This document shows, piece after piece, positions 7,871 to 55,717 of a DNA stretch of 56,871 nucleotides. The notes under the pieces were generated by a model. It searched no databases. It saw only the letters and a program-made list of their open reading frames with translations, and had not been told where the DNA came from. The translations under genes and the position numbers were made by a program. Source of the stretch: Porticoccaceae bacterium (GTDB lineage Bacteria; Pseudomonadota; Gammaproteobacteria; Pseudomonadales; Porticoccaceae); NCBI GenBank assembly GCA_036275455.1, contig DASUDS010000015.1, forward strand, positions 1-56,871, given 5' to 3'. Position 1 is the stretch's first letter, and every line of letters begins with the position of its first letter.

Positions 7871-8850
<980 letters not shown>

Positions 8851-15360: not shown

Positions 15361-15469
15361 CGCAGCGTAGCCGTAGCCGCGGAACTGTCGCTGTCGAAGC
15401 GACAATTGCTTTACCATTCATCGGAATCCACAGTCCCCTGAAACCAATAACCCCAACGAGGAGAAAGCC

Positions 15470-15757
15470 ATGATCGGTGTAATCGCAACCCTGAAAATCC
15501 AGGACGGCAAGCAGGCCGGCTTCGAGGCCCTGATGAAGGAGCTGACCGCCGCGGTGCGCGCCAATGAACCCGCCTGCACCTTCTATCAGCTGCACAAGAC
15601 CGACGATCCCACGGTTTACGTGATGCTCGAGCAGTACGGGAGCAAGGCCGATCTCGCCACCCACCGCGAGACCCCGCATTTCAAGACCCTGGGTGGCCGG
15701 CTCGGCGAGTTCCTGGCCGCGGCGCCTGGTATCCAGATCATGCCTGCCGTGGTCTGA
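15470..15757 (+). CDS. antibiotic-biosynthesis-monooxygenase (ABM) family protein / putative quinol monooxygenase
   Basis: 95 aa. MIGVIATLKIQDGKQAGFEALMKEL...YVMLEQYGSKADLATHRETPHFK is YgiN-like. A GAGGAG Shine-Dalgarno lies upstream. Confidence 0.85.
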   Translation: MIGVIATLKIQDGKQAGFEALMKELTAAVRANEPACTFYQLHKTDDPTVYVMLEQYGSKADLATHRETPHFKTLGGRLGEFLAAAPGIQIMPAVV

Positions 15758-15854
15758 ACCAAACGCGCAAGCTCCCACAAGGGATCCGCCGCCGCGCGGC
15801 GGCTCCCTTGCCCCCGCTGCTCCATTCCCGATGGCAAATCCCCAAGGAGTACTC

Positions 15855-16310
15855 ATGGCAGAACTGCTGACCCCCGAAATCAAGGCCCGGATCGGCACCG
15901 CCAGTCCCGAGATCCGCGTCGAAGTCACCCGGCGCGACATCCAGAAATACGCCGTCTCCACCGGCCAGCGCGCGCGCAAGTATCTGGATGGCGACGAAGC
16001 GCCGCCGCTGTTCCACTTCGGCTATTCGATGGAAATCCTGCCGCCCGAGCAGCTGCGCAAGGACGGCATCGCCGAAGACAAGCTGATCCCGCCGCTGCCG
16101 CTGAAGCGCGTCATGGCCGGCAACTCCGACACCACCTATCACCGGCCGATCCGCCCCGGCGACAAGCTGGTCATCACCCGGCGGCTCAAGGACATCTACG
16201 AGAAGGCCGGCAAGAGCGGCCCGTTGATCTTCGTGGTCACCGAGACCGAAGTGAAGACCGAGGCCGGAGAACCGGTGCTCAACGAAATCACCTCGCTCAT
16301 TGCGAGATAG
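15855..16310 (+). CDS. hotdog-fold (MaoC/FAS1-like dehydratase N-terminal type) protein, subunit 1 of a pair
   Basis: The internal ATG at 15855 is preceded by AAGGAG. MAELLTPEIKARIGTASPEIRVEVTRRDIQKYAVSTGQ...PLFHF is typical of the non-catalytic partner of two-gene hotdog hydratases. Confidence 0.75.
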   Translation: MAELLTPEIKARIGTASPEIRVEVTRRDIQKYAVSTGQRARKYLDGDEAPPLFHFGYSMEILPPEQLRKDGIAEDKLIPPLPLKRVMAGNSDTTYHRPIRPGDKLVITRRLKDIYEKAGKSGPLIFVVTETEVKTEAGEPVLNEITSLIAR

Positions 16311-16427
16311 CGTTAGCGGATTGCGAAATAGCTTGAGCGGATACGAGATAGCAGCCTGATTGAGAGATGGCCATCTGATTGCGAGATGGCCGTCGGATGG
16401 TAGATAGCCACCTGATTGCGAGATGAC
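16297..16427. repeat. 7 copies of an 18-22 nt unit spanning the stop of hotdog gene 1 and the start of hotdog gene 2
   Basis: tcattgcgagatagcgttagcg / gattgcgaaatagcttgagcg / gatacgagatagcagcct / gattgagagatggccatct / gattgcgagatggccgtcg / gatggtagatagccacct / gattgcgagATGAcc. Confidence 0.9.
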
Positions 16428-16839
16428 CATGCCCAAATTCGAAGACATCCAGCCCGGCGATGCGCTGCCCAGCCGCGACCACACCGCCGGCATCGTCCAA
16501 CTGTTCATGTACAACGCGGCGATCTGGAACCCGCACCGGATCCATTTCGACCACGCCTATGCCACCCAGGAAGAGGGCTATCCGGGCATCGTGCTCGACG
16601 GCCCGTTGCAGGGCGACTGGATCGGCCAGGTGGTCGCCGACTGGATCGGTGATGACGCCACGCTGGTTTCCTTCGGCTACGCCAACCGCCAGGCCGCCTT
16701 CCTCGGCGAGACCATGAGCGCGGGCGGCGTGGTGGAGTCGAAGGATGACGCCTCGCGCGAGGTCAAGGTCAGCCTGTTCCTGAAAAACGCCCAGGGTGAG
16801 ATCACCATTCCGGGGCATGCCCTGGTGCGGTTTCGTTGA
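16423..16839 (+). CDS. MaoC-like hotdog-fold dehydratase, subunit 2 of a pair
   Basis: 138 aa. ...FMYNAAIWNPHRIHFDHAYATQEEGYPGIVLDGPLQ... is a variant hydratase-2-like NPxxIHxD segment followed by a hotdog core. Confidence 0.75.
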   Translation: MTMPKFEDIQPGDALPSRDHTAGIVQLFMYNAAIWNPHRIHFDHAYATQEEGYPGIVLDGPLQGDWIGQVVADWIGDDATLVSFGYANRQAAFLGETMSAGGVVESKDDASREVKVSLFLKNAQGEITIPGHALVRFR

Positions 16840-16890
16840 CCGCGTCGGACAGCAAATCGCGGCCGGCCGCGGCCTAGTGACGGTCTCCCA

Positions 16891-17622
16891 ATGACCTATT
16901 GTCTCGGCATCTGTGTCGACCAAGGGCTGGTGCTGGCTTCCGACAGCCGCACCAGCGCCGGGGTCGACTACGCGTCCCTGTACAGCAAGATGCATGTGCT
17001 GCAACCGGCGCCGGACCGCCTGTTCGTGGTGCTCAGCGCCGGCAATCTGGCGCTCAGTCAACAGCTGCTGAGCTATCTGGAGCGCGATCTCGCCTACCCC
17101 GGCACCGCGGGCAACCTCAACAGCGCGCGCTATCTGTTCGAGGCCGCCGAGTACATCGGCGCCACCAATTTGCTGATCCAGAATCAGCACGGCCCGGCGC
17201 TGCGCGCCAGTGGCCAGGGACCGGAGGTCACGCTGATCCTGGGCGGCCAGATCGACGGCGAAGCCCCCGGGCTGTTCATCATCTATCCCCAGGGCAACTA
17301 CATGACGGCGTCCGCCCAGACGCCCTTCCTGCAGATCGGCGAGATCAAGTACGGGAAACCGATGCTGGATCGCGTCGCCCGCCCGGACCTGGCGCTGGAA
17401 GACGCGGCCCAGCTGTCCCTGGTCAGTCTGGATGGCGCCGCGCGCTCCAACATCTCGGTGGGGCCGCCCTACGAGGTCGCCCTCTACCAGCGCGACAGTC
17501 TGGCGCTGCAACGCCGGTTCCGCTTCGAGGGCGACGATCCCTTTCTCTCCCAACTGAGTGATGCCTGGCACGGCAAGGTCTGCGCAGCCTTTCAGCAACT
17601 ACCCCGTTTTCAGTGGTCTTGA
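16891..17622 (+). CDS. Anbu (ancestral beta-subunit) proteasome-type protease
   Basis: MTYCLGICVDQGLVLASDSRTSAGVDYASLYSKMHVL... The MTYC N-terminus (Thr2 nucleophile without propeptide), the SDSRT(N/S)AG motif and the roughly 240-aa length match the Anbu family as I remember it. Confidence 0.8.
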   Translation: MTYCLGICVDQGLVLASDSRTSAGVDYASLYSKMHVLQPAPDRLFVVLSAGNLALSQQLLSYLERDLAYPGTAGNLNSARYLFEAAEYIGATNLLIQNQHGPALRASGQGPEVTLILGGQIDGEAPGLFIIYPQGNYMTASAQTPFLQIGEIKYGKPMLDRVARPDLALEDAAQLSLVSLDGAARSNISVGPPYEVALYQRDSLALQRRFRFEGDDPFLSQLSDAWHGKVCAAFQQLPRFQWS

Positions 17623-44322: not shown

Positions 44323-45756
44323 TCAGCGACGATCCACTGGCGACGATGACGGAATGAGCTCGCCCAGGGTGCGGATCTGGATGGCGCCGACCCCGGCGCC
44401 GGCGAGGATGTCCTGCAATACCACCAGCTTGTCTTCGGCCGCGAACTGGCCGCTGGCGGCGAGCAGGGCGCCGGCTTCGGCCAACACCTGTTCTGGTGTT
44501 CCCGGGCGCGTCAGGCAGTAACTCTGCACGTTGCGATTGAGCGCCAGCTGCCGCCGCGTGGCGGCATCGAAGGCGAAGGCGCAGATCAGCGGAGTCTGCG
44601 GGTGGCAGTTGGTCACATAGCTGGCCATGCGCCCGCTGCGCGTGGGCACGATGATGGCGCGCGCGCCGATGGATTCGGCCAGCCGCACCGCGGCGGCGGC
44701 GACCTGCTGCTTGTCGTTGCCGAGCACCAGTTCATCGGTGAAACGCAGCCCGCGGCTGTTTTCGATGGAGCGGGCGATGCGGTCGAGCATCTCCACGCAG
44801 CGCACGGGGTACTTGCCCACCGTGGTCTCGCCCGAGAGCATGATGGCGTCCGCCTCCTCGTACACCGCATTGGCGACGTCGGTGACTTCGGCACGGGTCG
44901 GCGTCGGATTCTCGATCATGGATTCGAGCATGTGGGTGGCGACGATGACCCTTTTGCCCTGCACCGCGCACAGGCGCACGATGCGCCGCTGCACCCGCGG
45001 CAGCAGCTCGATGGGAATTTCGACGCCGAGATCGCCGCGCGCGACCATGACGCCGTCGGCGGCTGCGATGATCGCTTCGAGGTGGGTGAGTGCTTCCTGA
45101 TTCTCGATCTTGGCGATGAGTTTGATGTTGCAATCGGCGCCGAGCAGTTCGCGCGCCTGGGCGATGTCCGCGGCACTGCGCACGAACGACAGGGCGATGA
45201 AATCGGCGCCCAGCTCGCGGGCGAAGACGATGTCCCGCTTGTCCTTTTCGGTGATGCCCGGCAGGTTGACGCGGATGCCGGGCAGATTGACGTGGCGTTT
45301 GCTCTTTAGTACGCCGCCGTCGGTGACGCGACAGCGCATGGCGCGTTTGCCCTTGCTCAATACTTCGAGATTGATCAGGCCGTTGTCCAGGGTGATCTTG
45401 TCGCCGACCCCGACATCGGTGATCAGATCGGCGTAGTTCACCTGGATCGAGGTGGTTTCGACGTCGGTCTCGCCGAGCGGCACCACGGTGATTTCGTCGC
45501 CGTCGTGCAGGTTCAGATCCTGGGCCAGATCGCCGGTGCGGATTTCCGGGCCCTGGGTGTCCACCAGGATGGCGACGGGATGCTCGCGCCGCGCGTTGAG
45601 CTCCTGGATGCGGCGGATTACCAGGCCGTGGGAGGCGTGGTCGCCGTGCGACAGATTGAGCCGCGCCAGATTCATCCCGGCGGCGGCGAGTTTGTCCAGC
45701 ATGTCCGCCGATTCGGTCGCCGGGCCGATGGTGCAGATGATCTTGGTCTTACGCAT
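44323..45756 (-). CDS. pyk: pyruvate kinase
   Basis: MRKTKIICTIGPATESADMLDKLAAAGMNLARLNLSHGDH...MVARGDLGVEIP...MLESMIENPTPTRAEVTDVANAV is canonical. The 26-codon N-terminal extension in the ORF track (MSPHPTFSPHPTF...) is the upstream repeat read in another frame. Confidence 0.93.
   Translation of the reverse strand: MRKTKIICTIGPATESADMLDKLAAAGMNLARLNLSHGDHASHGLVIRRIQELNARREHPVAILVDTQGPEIRTGDLAQDLNLHDGDEITVVPLGETDVETTSIQVNYADLITDVGVGDKITLDNGLINLEVLSKGKRAMRCRVTDGGVLKSKRHVNLPGIRVNLPGITEKDKRDIVFARELGADFIALSFVRSAADIAQARELLGADCNIKLIAKIENQEALTHLEAIIAAADGVMVARGDLGVEIPIELLPRVQRRIVRLCAVQGKRVIVATHMLESMIENPTPTRAEVTDVANAVYEEADAIMLSGETTVGKYPVRCVEMLDRIARSIENSRGLRFTDELVLGNDKQQVAAAAVRLAESIGARAIIVPTRSGRMASYVTNCHPQTPLICAFAFDAATRRQLALNRNVQSYCLTRPGTPEQVLAEAGALLAASGQFAAEDKLVVLQDILAGAGVGAIQIRTLGELIPSSSPVDRR
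45253..45294. repeat. 21-nt x2 in-frame tandem repeat inside pyk
   Basis: gatgcccggcaggttgacgcg / gatgcccggcagattgacgtg (19/21 identical) encodes VNLPGIR-VNLPGIT on the minus strand. Confidence 0.8.
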
Positions 45757-54151: not shown

Positions 54152-54616
54152 ATGACCCTGCGCATCGACCCCACCAATCTGGCCGCCTGCATCGGCCAGG
54201 ACGCTGGCACCTCCGACTGGTTCGCCATCGATCAGTCGCGCGTCAACGACTTCGCCGACGTCACCCTGGATCACCAGTTCATCCACGTCGATCCCGAGCG
54301 CGCCAAACAGTCGCCCTTCGGCACCACCATCGCCCACGGTTTTCTGACACTGTCGATGCTCGCCTACTTCCTGCAAAACGGCGTCGGCATCGACGTGCCC
54401 AACCGCACCATGGGCGTCAACTACGGTTTCGACAAGGTGCGCTTCCTGGCCCCGGTCAAGGTCGGCCGCCGCATCCGCGCCAATGCCAAGGTGCTGGAGG
54501 CCGCGGAAAAGAGCCCCGGCCAGTTCCTGTTCAAGCTCGACATCACCGTGGAGATCGAAGGCGAGGACAAGCCGGCACTCAAGGCCGAGTGGCTCAACAT
54601 GATTTTCACCCGCTGA
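54152..54616 (+). CDS. MaoC-family (R)-specific enoyl-CoA hydratase-like dehydratase
   Basis: MTLRIDPTNLAACIGQDAGTSDWFAIDQSRVNDFADVTLDHQFIHVDPERAKQSPFGTTIAHGFL is a hotdog hydratase motif variant. Confidence 0.85.
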   Translation: MTLRIDPTNLAACIGQDAGTSDWFAIDQSRVNDFADVTLDHQFIHVDPERAKQSPFGTTIAHGFLTLSMLAYFLQNGVGIDVPNRTMGVNYGFDKVRFLAPVKVGRRIRANAKVLEAAEKSPGQFLFKLDITVEIEGEDKPALKAEWLNMIFTR

Positions 54617-54784
54617 CGGATCCGCACCCGCTGACGGATCCGCACCCGCTGACGGATCCCTGCCCGCTGAACGCGGCCTGCAACGCCCAAGAACCTGCAA
54701 TATCGAAGATATCCAGGAGCCTGCAATATCCAAGAGCCTGCAACGCTCCAGAACCTGTAACGCTCCAGAAAGAGGAACTCCAGC
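54607..54784. repeat. two consecutive tandem arrays filling the MaoC/SDR spacer: 18 nt x4 (stop-containing), then about 17 nt x5 (RBS-containing)
   Basis: First array: cacccgcTGAcggatccg x3, then tgcccgcTGAacgcggcc. Second array: tgcaacgcccaagaacc / tgcaatatcgaagatatccaggagcc / tgcaatatccaagagcc / tgcaacgctccagaacc / tgtaacgctccagaaagaggaactccagc-ATG. Confidence 0.9.
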
Positions 54785-55696
54785 ATGACTATTCGATTCG
54801 ACGGCCGCGTGGCCATCGTCACCGGCGCCGGCAACGGCCTGGGCCGCTCCCATGCGCTGGCCCTGGCGGCGCGCGGTGCCAAGGTGGTGGTCAATGACCT
54901 CGGCGGCGCCCGCGACGGCACCGGTGCTTCCAGCGAAGCGGCGCGCGCCGTGGTCGCGGAAATCAAGGCCGCTGGCGGCGAAGCCATCGCCAATGGCGCC
55001 AACGTGGCCGATTTCGCCCAGGTGCAGGCGATGGTCAAGGAGACGATGGACGCCTGGGGACGGGTGGACATCCTCATCAACAACGCCGGCATCCTGCGCG
55101 ACAAGTCCTTCTCCAAGATGGACATGGCCGACTTCAAGCTGGTGATGGACGTGCACCTGATGGGCGCGGCCTACTGCGCCAAGGCAGTGTGGGAGATCAT
55201 GAAGGAGCAGAACTACGGCCGCATCGTGATGACCTCGTCGTCGAGTGGCCTGTACGGCAATTTCGGCCAGTCGAACTACAGCGCTGCCAAGCTCGCCGTG
55301 GTCGGCCTGATGAACAGCCTCGCCCAGGAAGGCGAAAAGTACAATGTGCGGGTCAATTCGCTGGCGCCCGCGGCGCTGACGCGGATGACCGAGGACATCA
55401 TTCCCGACCCGCGTGCCGCCGCGGTGATGCAGCCCGAGCCGGTCAGCGCCGGGGTGCTGGTGCTGTGCTCCGAAGACGCGCCCAACAAGTTCATTCTCTG
55501 TGCCGGTGCCGGTGGTTACGCCAGCGCCCACCTCTACGAGACCCGCGGTCTCTATCTGGCCGAACAGACCCCGGAAGCGGTGCAGGAGCACTGGGCGCAG
55601 ATCGACGATCCCAAGGGCGAGGAGCGGCTTTCCGGAGCCCTCAAGCAGACCGAGAAATTCATCGGCTACGCGCTCGCCGCGCAGAAATCATCCTGA
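54785..55696 (+). CDS. SDR-family oxidoreductase (MFE-2-type 3-hydroxyacyl-CoA dehydrogenase-like)
   Basis: MTIRFDGRVAIVTGAGNGLGRSHALALAARGAKVVVNDLGG...NNAGILRDKSF...SSSSGLYGNFGQSNYSAAKLA resembles the N-terminal dehydrogenase domain of multifunctional enzyme type 2. Confidence 0.88.
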   Translation: MTIRFDGRVAIVTGAGNGLGRSHALALAARGAKVVVNDLGGARDGTGASSEAARAVVAEIKAAGGEAIANGANVADFAQVQAMVKETMDAWGRVDILINNAGILRDKSFSKMDMADFKLVMDVHLMGAAYCAKAVWEIMKEQNYGRIVMTSSSSGLYGNFGQSNYSAAKLAVVGLMNSLAQEGEKYNVRVNSLAPAALTRMTEDIIPDPRAAAVMQPEPVSAGVLVLCSEDAPNKFILCAGAGGYASAHLYETRGLYLAEQTPEAVQEHWAQIDDPKGEERLSGALKQTEKFIGYALAAQKSS

Positions 55697-55717
55697 TTCC
55701 ACTCATCCTGATTCCAC
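55688..55717. repeat. 15-nt x2 perfect tandem duplication of the SDR gene 3' end including TGA
   Basis: tcatccTGAttccac occurs at 55688-55702 and again at 55703-55717. The stops at 55694 and 55709 are in frame. Confidence 0.88.

What the first reader, a model, noticed from the sequence alone, without database searches (positions are those of the whole stretch)
16297..16427. The junction of two hotdog-subunit genes has been duplicated about 6 times, separating an apparently ancestral ATGA overlap
The first unit contains the real end of gene 1 (att gcg aga TAG, 16299-16310). The last unit contains the real start of gene 2 (att gcg ag-ATG-A, 16415-16426). Read in gene 1's frame, the last unit would give ...I A R TGA with the gene 2 ATG overlapping as ATGA. 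That is exactly the arrangement expected for a translationally coupled two-subunit enzyme. Between these two units lie five degenerate copies of the same junction, and 112 nt now separate the stop from the start. Several copies carry in-frame TAG codons (16314, 16329). This is the clearest case where the array's origin can be read from the sequence, and it predicts a change in the coupling or stoichiometry of a heteromeric hydratase.
Basis: partly seen in the sequence, partly recalled or inferred. Interest (0 to 1): 0.65.

Follow-up and report, generated by a model that had tools for sequence, protein, structure and literature searches.

The report
Variable tandem repeat splitting two enzyme-subunit genes
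The short DNA stretch that joined the two halves of a split hydratase enzyme has been copied head to tail 7 to 9 times in this uncultured bacterium, pushing the two genes 118 bases apart; it is an ordinary, still-changing tandem repeat, but its birth and growth can be read step by step from relatives.

Summary
Positions 16299-16433 hold seven head-to-tail units of 18-21 nt. The first unit carries the stop of gene 1 and the last carries the ribosome-binding site and start of gene 2.

Relatives show a growth series:
- 1 unit in L002, L003, L041 and L042 (GCGAGA-TAG-CC-ATG).
- 2 units in a relative seen in two metagenomes.
- 3 units in L001.
- 7, 8 and 9 units among strains whose gene 1 protein is identical to the window's.

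The array is therefore a real variable-number tandem repeat derived from the gene junction.

The immediate ancestor had a 2-nt spacer, not an ATGA overlap. All 39 other close relatives have +2 to +6 nt. The ATGA in the last unit is a derived change. The orthologous start is the ATG at 16429, not 16423.

The two genes match the N- and C-terminal hot-dog halves of single-chain itaconyl-CoA hydratase. The 118-nt gap should abolish termination-reinitiation coupling, leaving gene 2 dependent on a weak ribosome-binding site of its own.

A relay of mini-ORFs, an operator and an internal promoter are not supported. Similar private arrays at other gene junctions of this window are missing in relatives, which points to a lineage-wide duplication process.

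The parts
15855..16310 (+). Gene 1: 151-aa N-terminal hot-dog subunit (FAS1_DH_region, HadA-like), ending ...S L I A R TAG
   Evidence: Pfam PF13452, E 1.6e-21. Weak HadA hits in NCBIfam. Aligns to residues 17-138 of itaconyl-CoA hydratase 8huc_A/8khg_A. Same C-terminus in all relatives.
16299..16340 (+). Units 1-2 (21 nt each): the young, copy-number-variable 5' sub-array. Unit 1 carries the real stop TAG at 16308-16310. Further in-frame TAGs lie at 16314 and 16329.
   Evidence: Strains with an identical gene 1 protein carry 2, 3 or 4 units of 21 nt here.
16341..16414 (+). Units 3-6 (18, 19, 19, 18 nt): older, diverged, non-coding copies of the junction. They were invariant among the strains examined.
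16366..16394 (+). Hairpin formed by units 4 and 5 (11-bp stem, 7-nt loop), containing the 12-nt palindrome AGATGGCCATCT
   Evidence: Inverted repeat I1. It is the strongest stem in the RNA fold. The whole spacer has z = -2.06, which is marginal. No T-run follows, so it is not an intrinsic terminator.
16397..16426 (+). Mini-ORF MVDSHLIAR. Its TGA overlaps the ATG at 16423 (ATGA) and ends 2 nt before the ATG at 16429. There is no evidence that it is used. Two other mini-ORFs lie at 16367-16378 and 16386-16403.
   Evidence: No ATG-started ORF lies between the gene 1 stop and 16367, and L001 has no equivalent.
16415..16433 (+). Unit 7: the working copy of the junction. It holds the Shine-Dalgarno-like GAGATGA (16420-16426), a lineage-specific in-frame ATG (16423-16425) and the orthologous start ATG (16429-16431).
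   Evidence: Alignment with relatives. Public gene calls give the 136-aa product. Anti-SD pairing is -5.0 kcal/mol, against weaker than -3.2 at the L003 junction. GAGATGACCATGCCC is identical in the window and L001.
16429..16839 (+). Gene 2: 136-aa C-terminal hot-dog subunit (HadB / MaoC / Htd2-like)
   Evidence: NCBIfam HadB and fused HadA/HadB weak hits. Aligns to residues 171-238 of 8huc_A/8khg_A, E 2.6e-9. PF27832 Htd2 (weak) on public records.

Best explanation
This is a private variable-number tandem repeat (minisatellite) built from the gene junction itself.

Origin. In the common ancestor of this species and its sister (L001), a stretch of about 19 nt was duplicated head to tail. The stretch, CCTGATTGCGAGATAGCCA, holds the last codons of gene 1 with the embedded ribosome-binding site, the TAG stop, the 2-nt spacer and the first base of the gene 2 ATG. 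The duplication was harmless because the first copy keeps the gene 1 stop and the last copy keeps the ribosome-binding site and start of gene 2.

Growth. The array then grew and shrank by whole units through slipped-strand mispairing or unequal recombination. Inner copies decayed. The most similar 21-nt units at the 5' end are still gaining and losing copies in natural populations.

Consequence (inferred). The stop-to-start distance rose from 2 nt to 118 nt. That is far beyond the roughly 20 nt at which termination-reinitiation coupling is lost. Gene 2 must now be translated by independent initiation at the weak Shine-Dalgarno of the last unit. The TAG-to-TGA change in that unit slightly improved this site. 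The array itself is probably neutral or nearly so. It is one product of a lineage-wide tendency to duplicate short stretches, which survive only at gene boundaries.
For: Shown:
- The single-copy junction ATTGCGAGATAGCCATGCCC occurs in L002, L003, L041 and L042, and 39 of 40 close relatives have a +2 to +6 nt spacer.
- The joint between units, GCCA|CCTGATT (16406-16417), is exactly what a head-to-tail copy of the 19-nt stretch predicts.
- Intermediate states exist: 2 units in an ~88%-identical relative in runs X8 and X19, which shares 16 of 19 variant letters with L001, and 3 units in L001.
- Among strains with an identical gene 1 protein there are 7-unit and 9-unit alleles with full sequences. 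Both possible 8-unit intermediates also occur. Window unit 1 is an a/b hybrid of the 9-unit allele.
- The unit occurs nowhere else in the window.
- No promoter-like site and no T-run terminator lie in the spacer, and there is no Rfam match.
- Metatranscriptome contigs cover 16299-16340 and 16372-16698 (X29) and 16389-16873 (X25).
- Both genes are intact and 97% and 93% identical to those of L001.
- Replicates at other junctions: the MaoC-SDR spacer is 168 nt here against 29-40 nt in five relatives, and the SDR-thiolase junction has a perfect 15-nt duplication flanked by TCATC microhomology.

From the literature: intergenic distances of about 20 nt almost abolish termination-reinitiation in E. 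coli and Haloferax, and short overlaps are enriched among subunits of heteromers (PMC10666635).
Against: - No expression measurement exists, so loss of coupling and altered subunit ratio are inferences.
- No RNA contig spans the whole array, so co-transcription is not proven.
- The reconstructed 19-nt founder duplication has no flanking microhomology, so its first step may not have been classical slippage.
- Persistence of degenerate inner units across about 13% nucleotide divergence is somewhat unexpected under bacterial deletion bias and leaves room for weak selection.
Confidence: 0.75

Rival explanations
1. The array is a selected translational relay, a home-made counterpart of MIRUs. Chained mini-ORFs with stop/start overlaps would hand ribosomes from gene 1 to gene 2 and so preserve coupling across the spacer.
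For: Units 4-6 contain ATG-started mini-ORFs: MAI at 16367-16378, MAVGW at 16386-16403 and MVDSHLIAR at 16397-16426. The last one ends in TGA overlapping the ATG at 16423. MIRUs are described as carrying ORFs coupled at -4 nt to the flanking gene (PMC12548453, PMC3184786).
Against: No ATG lies in the 56 nt after the gene 1 stop. Units 1-3 carry TAG instead of ATG, so there is no unbroken relay. Unit lengths of 18, 19 and 21 nt do not fit the 3n+2 period that an ATGA relay needs. The 2-unit and 3-unit forms (L001) have no mini-ORF chain at all. The mini-ORF starts lack Shine-Dalgarno-like pairing at -4.5 kcal/mol or better.
Confidence: 0.08
2. Copy number is an adaptive rheostat. Slippage in the 21-nt units would tune the gene 2 to gene 1 ratio, or mRNA stability, to local conditions.
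For: Alleles of 7, 8 and 9 units coexist in nature behind identical proteins, and sometimes within one sample (X6, X17, X19). The gene pair encodes two halves of one enzyme, so the ratio matters.
Against: The variable units lie at the gene 1 end of the array, more than 75 nt from the gene 2 ribosome-binding site. Coupling should already be lost at about 20 nt (PMC10666635), so 118 versus 160 nt should make little difference. Similar arrays sit at many unrelated junctions, which is what a mutational process predicts.
Confidence: 0.12
3. The repeats are iterated binding sites (operator or iteron-like) or contain an internal promoter that gives gene 2 its own regulation.
For: Direct repeats at 18-21-bp spacing and a 12-nt palindrome, AGATGGCCATCT, are present. 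The array has lower G+C, about 52-54% against 67% for the window. RNA contigs begin inside the array at 16372 and 16389.
Against: No sigma-70-like site was found. Unit sequences are poorly conserved between the window and L001, and the palindrome is absent from L001. Copy number varies freely. Contig ends in low-depth k-mer assemblies do not mark transcript 5' ends.
Confidence: 0.04
4. The in-frame TAG copies are selected as back-up stops against read-through of the gene 1 TAG.
For: The 21-nt units keep the frame. TAG recurs in frame at 16314 and 16329, and more often in the 9-unit allele.
Against: In-frame stops follow automatically from a period divisible by three. The older units, and many other arrays in the window, have periods not divisible by three. 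One back-up stop would be enough.
Confidence: 0.03

Closest known systems
Bacterial VNTR / minisatellite loci evolving by slipped-strand mispairing
   Same: Head-to-tail units occur in non-coding DNA. Whole-unit gains and losses are seen among otherwise near-identical strains. The most similar neighbouring units are the unstable ones.
   Different: The unit is demonstrably a copy of a functional gene junction (C-terminal codons with the ribosome-binding site, the stop, and the start). The single-copy progenitor and the 2- and 3-unit intermediates are preserved in relatives.
MIRUs (mycobacterial interspersed repetitive units; Supply et al. 1997, as summarised in PMC3184786 and PMC12548453)
   Same: Both are variable-copy repeats sitting between co-transcribed genes of an operon, next to the stop and start codons of the flanking genes.
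   Different: MIRUs are 40-100 bp. They form a dispersed family of about 40-50 loci with a shared sequence, appear to insert at start codons, and carry an ORF coupled at -4 nt. Here the units are 18-21 nt, private to this locus, born in situ, and form no continuous ORF relay.
Translationally coupled subunit gene pairs with -4/-1 overlaps or very short spacers (Huber et al. 2019 and 2023; PMC6728339, PMC10666635)
   Same: The homologous hot-dog pairs have exactly this architecture. In 109 pairs there are 18 with -4, 7 with -1 and 79 with +2 to +11 nt. The Shine-Dalgarno sits in the last codons of gene 1.
   Different: The window has lost it. Its spacer is 118 nt, the largest among the homologous pairs examined.
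Single-chain double hot-dog itaconyl-CoA hydratase (PDB 8huc, 8khg) and the heterodimeric HadAB dehydratases
   Same: Gene 1 aligns to the N-terminal half of the single chain and gene 2 to the C-terminal half. There are weak HadA, HadB and fused HadA/HadB hits.
   Different: Here the enzyme is split into two genes. All scores are far below the NCBIfam cut-offs, so substrate and exact family are unknown.

Membership tests
VNTR / minisatellite (slippage-driven tandem repeat) | Head-to-tail repeated units well beyond chance | tested here: met
   TRF scores 73 and 87. Seven units. The window has 21 arrays against 0.9 in shuffles.
VNTR / minisatellite (slippage-driven tandem repeat) | Copy number differs among closely related strains by whole units | tested here: met
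   Alleles of 7, 8 (two kinds) and 9 units occur behind an identical gene 1 protein. The sister species carries 2 and 3 units.
VNTR / minisatellite (slippage-driven tandem repeat) | Instability concentrated where neighbouring units are most alike | tested here: met
   All polymorphism lies in the 21-nt units, which match at 18 of 21 positions. Units 3-7 match at 12-16 of 19 and are invariant.
MIRU | Unit of about 40-100 bp | tested here: not met
   Units are 18-21 nt.
MIRU | Dispersed family: the same sequence at many loci | tested here: not met
   All five matches with up to 3 mismatches in the 56.9-kb window lie inside this array. The other arrays have unrelated units. The whole genome could not be searched.
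MIRU | Internal ORF whose start and stop overlap those of the flanking genes | tested here: not met
   Only the last mini-ORF (16397-26) overlaps an ATG. None abuts the gene 1 stop, and L001 has none.
MIRU | Located between genes of one operon and transcribed | tested here: inconclusive
   The genes are co-directional and no terminator or promoter was found. RNA contigs cover both ends of the array but none spans it.
ATGA (-4) overlapping coupled gene pair as the ancestral state | Orthologues in close relatives show the 4-nt overlap | tested here: not met
   0 of 40 close relatives have it; they show +2 to +6 nt. It occurs in 18 of 69 distant homologues.
Two-subunit (split double hot-dog) hydratase/dehydratase | Adjacent genes that correspond to the N- and C-terminal hot-dog halves of a fused enzyme | tested here: met
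   Gene 1 aligns to residues 17-138 and gene 2 to residues 171-238 of 8huc_A/8khg_A. PF13452 is present on gene 1.
Two-subunit (split double hot-dog) hydratase/dehydratase | Physical heteromer and catalytic residues in the second subunit | not tested
   No structure prediction or motif analysis was done. This needs co-purification or a complex model.
Operator / iteron array | Repeat sequence and number conserved among relatives; associated promoter | tested here: not met
   Units diverge between the window and L001, copy number varies, and no promoter-like site was found.

The most novel reading that the evidence does not exclude
This lineage runs an unusual, still-active process that duplicates 13-21-nt stretches. 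The resulting arrays at operon junctions are not only tolerated. They serve as evolvable spacers that uncouple subunit genes and let slippage reset their expression ratio. The cause might be a defect or change in lagging-strand flap processing or a related repair step. The hot-dog pair, with 1, 2, 3, 7, 8 and 9 units available in nature, would then be a ready-made allelic series for measuring how translational coupling decays with distance in a native context.
Probability: 0.12. Interest if true: 0.65.

Novelty: new variant of a known kind. Interest (0 to 1): 0.4.

Why it matters
On its own, this is a neutral-looking minisatellite. Its value is as a documented natural experiment.

- The progenitor junction, the first duplication, intermediate sizes and currently segregating alleles are all preserved in public data.
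- The genes involved are the two halves of one enzyme, and their relatives almost universally keep them within a few nucleotides of each other.
- This gives a direct way to test how much termination-reinitiation coupling matters for subunit balance in vivo, and how a cell compensates when it is lost. Here the compensation may be a two-base change that strengthens the downstream ribosome-binding site.

It is also one clear case within a genome whose gene boundaries are unusually rich in such private arrays. Several of these are absent from relatives with 97% identical proteins. That points to a recent change in mutational regime in this widespread environmental gammaproteobacterium.

Tried and rejected
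No whole-genome census of arrays and no check of replication or repair genes was possible.
- Pfam gave no hit for gene 2, even at E = 10. The PDB and NCBIfam searches were needed instead.
- Rfam returned only one chance-level hit in 15700-16900.
- The promoter and terminator scan found nothing in the spacer.
- The RNA fold of the spacer is only marginally more stable than shuffles (z = -2.06), so a structured RNA element was rejected.
- Eight metatranscriptome runs were laid on the locus. Low-depth contigs cover both genes and both ends of the array, but none spans it, so co-transcription is not settled.
- The exact-sequence look-up of the 138-aa version of gene 2 found nothing. The 136-aa version is the one on record.
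- The MAG record behind L121 has a run of N inside the array, so its apparent 202-nt spacer was discarded.
- The mini-ORF relay idea, a lead from earlier notes, was tested and not met.
- Literature searches for this kind of junction-derived private array in bacteria found no direct description.
- A classical microhomology for the founder duplication was looked for by eye and not found. TG...TG is 17 nt apart and does not fit the 19-nt joint.

Full report
**What is in the sequence**

Gene 1 (15855-16310) ends ...S-L-I-A-R-TAG. From its last four codons onward, the sequence runs as seven head-to-tail units:

| Unit | Sequence | Coordinates |
|---|---|---|
| 1 | ATTGCGAGATAGCGTTAGCGG | 16299-16319 |
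| 2 | ATTGCGAAATAGCTTGAGCGG | 16320-16340 |
| 3 | ATACGAGATAGCAGCCTG | 16341-16358 |
| 4 | ATTGAGAGATGGCCATCTG | 16359-16377 |
| 5 | ATTGCGAGATGGCCGTCGG | 16378-16396 |
| 6 | ATGGTAGATAGCCACCTG | 16397-16414 |
| 7 | ATTGCGAGATGACCATGCC | 16415-16433 |

- Tandem Repeats Finder splits the run into a 21-nt array (score 73) and a 19-nt array (score 87).
- The window as a whole has 21 arrays of period 10-30, against 0.9 expected from shuffles.
- The unit occurs nowhere else in the window.
- The array is about 52-54% G+C in a 67% G+C window.

**The genes**

- Gene 1 is a FAS1_DH_region / HadA-like hot-dog protein.
- Gene 2 has no Pfam hit but gives weak hits to HadB and to fused HadA/HadB.
- Both genes hit the same solved single-chain enzyme, itaconyl-CoA hydratase 8huc/8khg. 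Gene 1 aligns to residues 17-138 and gene 2 to residues 171-238.
- The pair is therefore a split double hot-dog hydratase. Substrate and heteromer formation were not tested.

**What relatives show**

One scan of species genomes and one of metagenomes gave 120 loci. In 109 of them both genes are adjacent and complete.

- The stop-to-start distance is -4 to +11 nt in 104 pairs.
- Among the 40 close relatives (gene 1 at least 76% identical), 39 have +2 to +6 nt. The Shine-Dalgarno (GCGAGG) sits inside the last two codons of gene 1.
- The nearest single-copy relatives (L002, L003, L041, L042) read ...CTG ATT GCG AGA TAG CC ATG CCC.
- The ancestral state was therefore a 2-nt spacer, not an ATGA overlap. 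ATGA overlaps exist only among distant homologues, in 18 of 69.
- The orthologous start in the window is the ATG at 16429 (MPKFED...). This is also the start that public gene calls use, giving a 136-aa product.
- The ATG at 16423 and the ATGA it forms come from a two-base change, TAGCC to TGACC. That change is confined to the last unit of the array-bearing lineages.

**Origin and growth**

A head-to-tail copy of the 19-nt stretch CCTGATTGCGAGATAGCCA of the single-copy junction predicts the joint ...GCCA|CCTGATT.... This is exactly what stands between units 6 and 7. The reconstruction is inference.

Intermediate sizes are preserved:

- A relative about 88% identical to the window, seen in two metagenomes, has 2 units. 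It shares 16 of 19 variant letters with L001.
- L001, the closest genome (97% and 93% protein identity, 86-87% nucleotide identity), has 3 units.
- Both keep GAGATGACCATGCCC as the last unit.

Within the window's own species, public assemblies with an identical gene 1 protein carry two main alleles:

- The 7-unit allele is found in 4 other samples.
- The 9-unit allele is found in 8 samples. Its four 21-nt units are a ATTGCGAGATAGCTTTAGCAG, b ATTGCGCGATAGCGTTAGCGG, c ATTGCGAAATAGCTTGAGCGG and d ATTACGAGATAGCTTGAGCGG.

The window's unit 1 is an a/b hybrid and its unit 2 equals c. Both possible 8-unit intermediates exist: a+b without d in X9, and the hybrid with c+d in X19. Minor alleles coexist within single samples. 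All variation lies in the most similar units, and units 3-7 are fixed. This is the behaviour of a slippage-driven VNTR.

**Function**

- The spacer has no promoter-like site and no terminator with a T-run.
- It has no Rfam match.
- Its fold is only marginally more stable than shuffles. The one strong feature is a hairpin made by units 4 and 5.
- Metatranscriptome contigs cover gene 1, both ends of the array and gene 2 at similar low depth, but none spans the array.

Experiments in E. coli and Haloferax show that distances of about 20 nt almost abolish termination-reinitiation, and that short overlaps are enriched among subunits of heteromers (PMC10666635). I therefore infer that coupling is lost here, and already in L001.

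Predicted anti-SD pairing at the junction falls along the lineage:

| Sequence | Pairing (kcal/mol) |
|---|---|
| L018 | -11.8 |
| L005 | -7.8 |
| L003-type junction | weaker than -3.2 |
| Last unit of window and L001 | -5.0 |

The TAG-to-TGA change in the last unit may therefore be a partial compensation.

**Rivals**

- The mini-ORF relay was suggested by earlier notes on other genomes and by the MIRU literature (PMC12548453, PMC3184786). It fails here. No ATG lies in the 56 nt after the gene 1 stop, the unit lengths do not fit a relay, and the 2- and 3-unit forms have no chain.
- An operator or promoter role does not fit the poor conservation and free copy number.
- Back-up stops are a by-product of a 21-nt period.
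- A copy-number rheostat cannot be excluded. It is unlikely to act at 118 versus 160 nt.

**Context**

The same thing has happened at other junctions of this window.

- The MaoC-SDR spacer is 168 nt and is filled by two arrays. The first is built on the MaoC stop. In five relatives, including two with 97% identical SDR, the spacer is 29-40 nt.
- The SDR-thiolase junction has a perfect 15-nt duplication flanked by TCATC microhomology. L145 has an independent 18-nt duplication at the same place.
- In 12 kb of synteny, the sister genomes L141 and L142 have one array each (a coding repeat in pyk), against five in the window.

The hot-dog array is thus one, relatively old, product of a lineage-wide tendency.

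**Verdict**

This is a new variant of a known kind, a private junction-derived VNTR. It has moderate interest as a natural allelic series for studying translational coupling.

Noticed in passing
window 54607-54784: The MaoC-SDR spacer is 168 nt. It is filled by an 18-nt array built on the MaoC stop (CACCCGCTGA repeated) and a 17-nt array ahead of the SDR ribosome-binding site. Five relatives, two of them with 97% identical SDR, have 29-40 nt and no array.
   Followed up: yes
window 55688-55717; L145 3916-3957: A perfect 15-nt duplication, TCATCCTGATTCCAC, includes the SDR stop and is flanked by the microhomology TCATC. L144 and L141 have the single copy. L145 has an independent 18-nt duplication at the same junction.
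   Followed up: yes
window 45253-45292; L142 647-686: A 21-nt x2 repeat inside pyruvate kinase (window 45253-45292). The only array TRF found in sister genome L142 is also 21-nt x2 and lies within its pyk gene, so this may be an old coding repeat rather than part of the recent burst; L141's single array (8762-8801) is not in pyk, and correspondence by alignment was not checked.
   Followed up: partly
window 16891-17622: The gene after the hot-dog pair is a 243-aa proteasome-family (Ntn) protein (PF00227, E 5.9e-07). Earlier notes link look-alike stretches in other genomes to Anbu operons. RNA contigs run from gene 2 into its 5' end.
   Followed up: no
L121 (GCA_031969735.1 contig DALYJS010000051.1), about 1970-2070: This public MAG has a run of N exactly inside the 21-nt sub-array. 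Assemblers break at this VNTR, so spacer lengths taken from scaffolded MAGs are unreliable.
   Followed up: partly
L003 2491-2530; L014 2484-2524; L020 1981-2018; L021 123-161: More distant Porticoccaceae-like relatives also carry occasional private 13-16-nt intergenic arrays, two of them just upstream of gene 1. This suggests a family-wide low background of the process that is strongly amplified in the window's lineage.
   Followed up: partly
L057 and L058 (about 59% identical homologues), gene 1 stop to gene 2 start: These are the only other homologous pairs with a long spacer (50-51 nt). The spacer holds ATCGAA three times and may be an independent junction expansion.
   Followed up: no
window 15400-15950: Metatranscriptome contigs run without a break from the ABM monooxygenase gene (15470-15757) into gene 1. 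This suggests that the hot-dog pair is co-transcribed with the upstream gene.
   Followed up: partly
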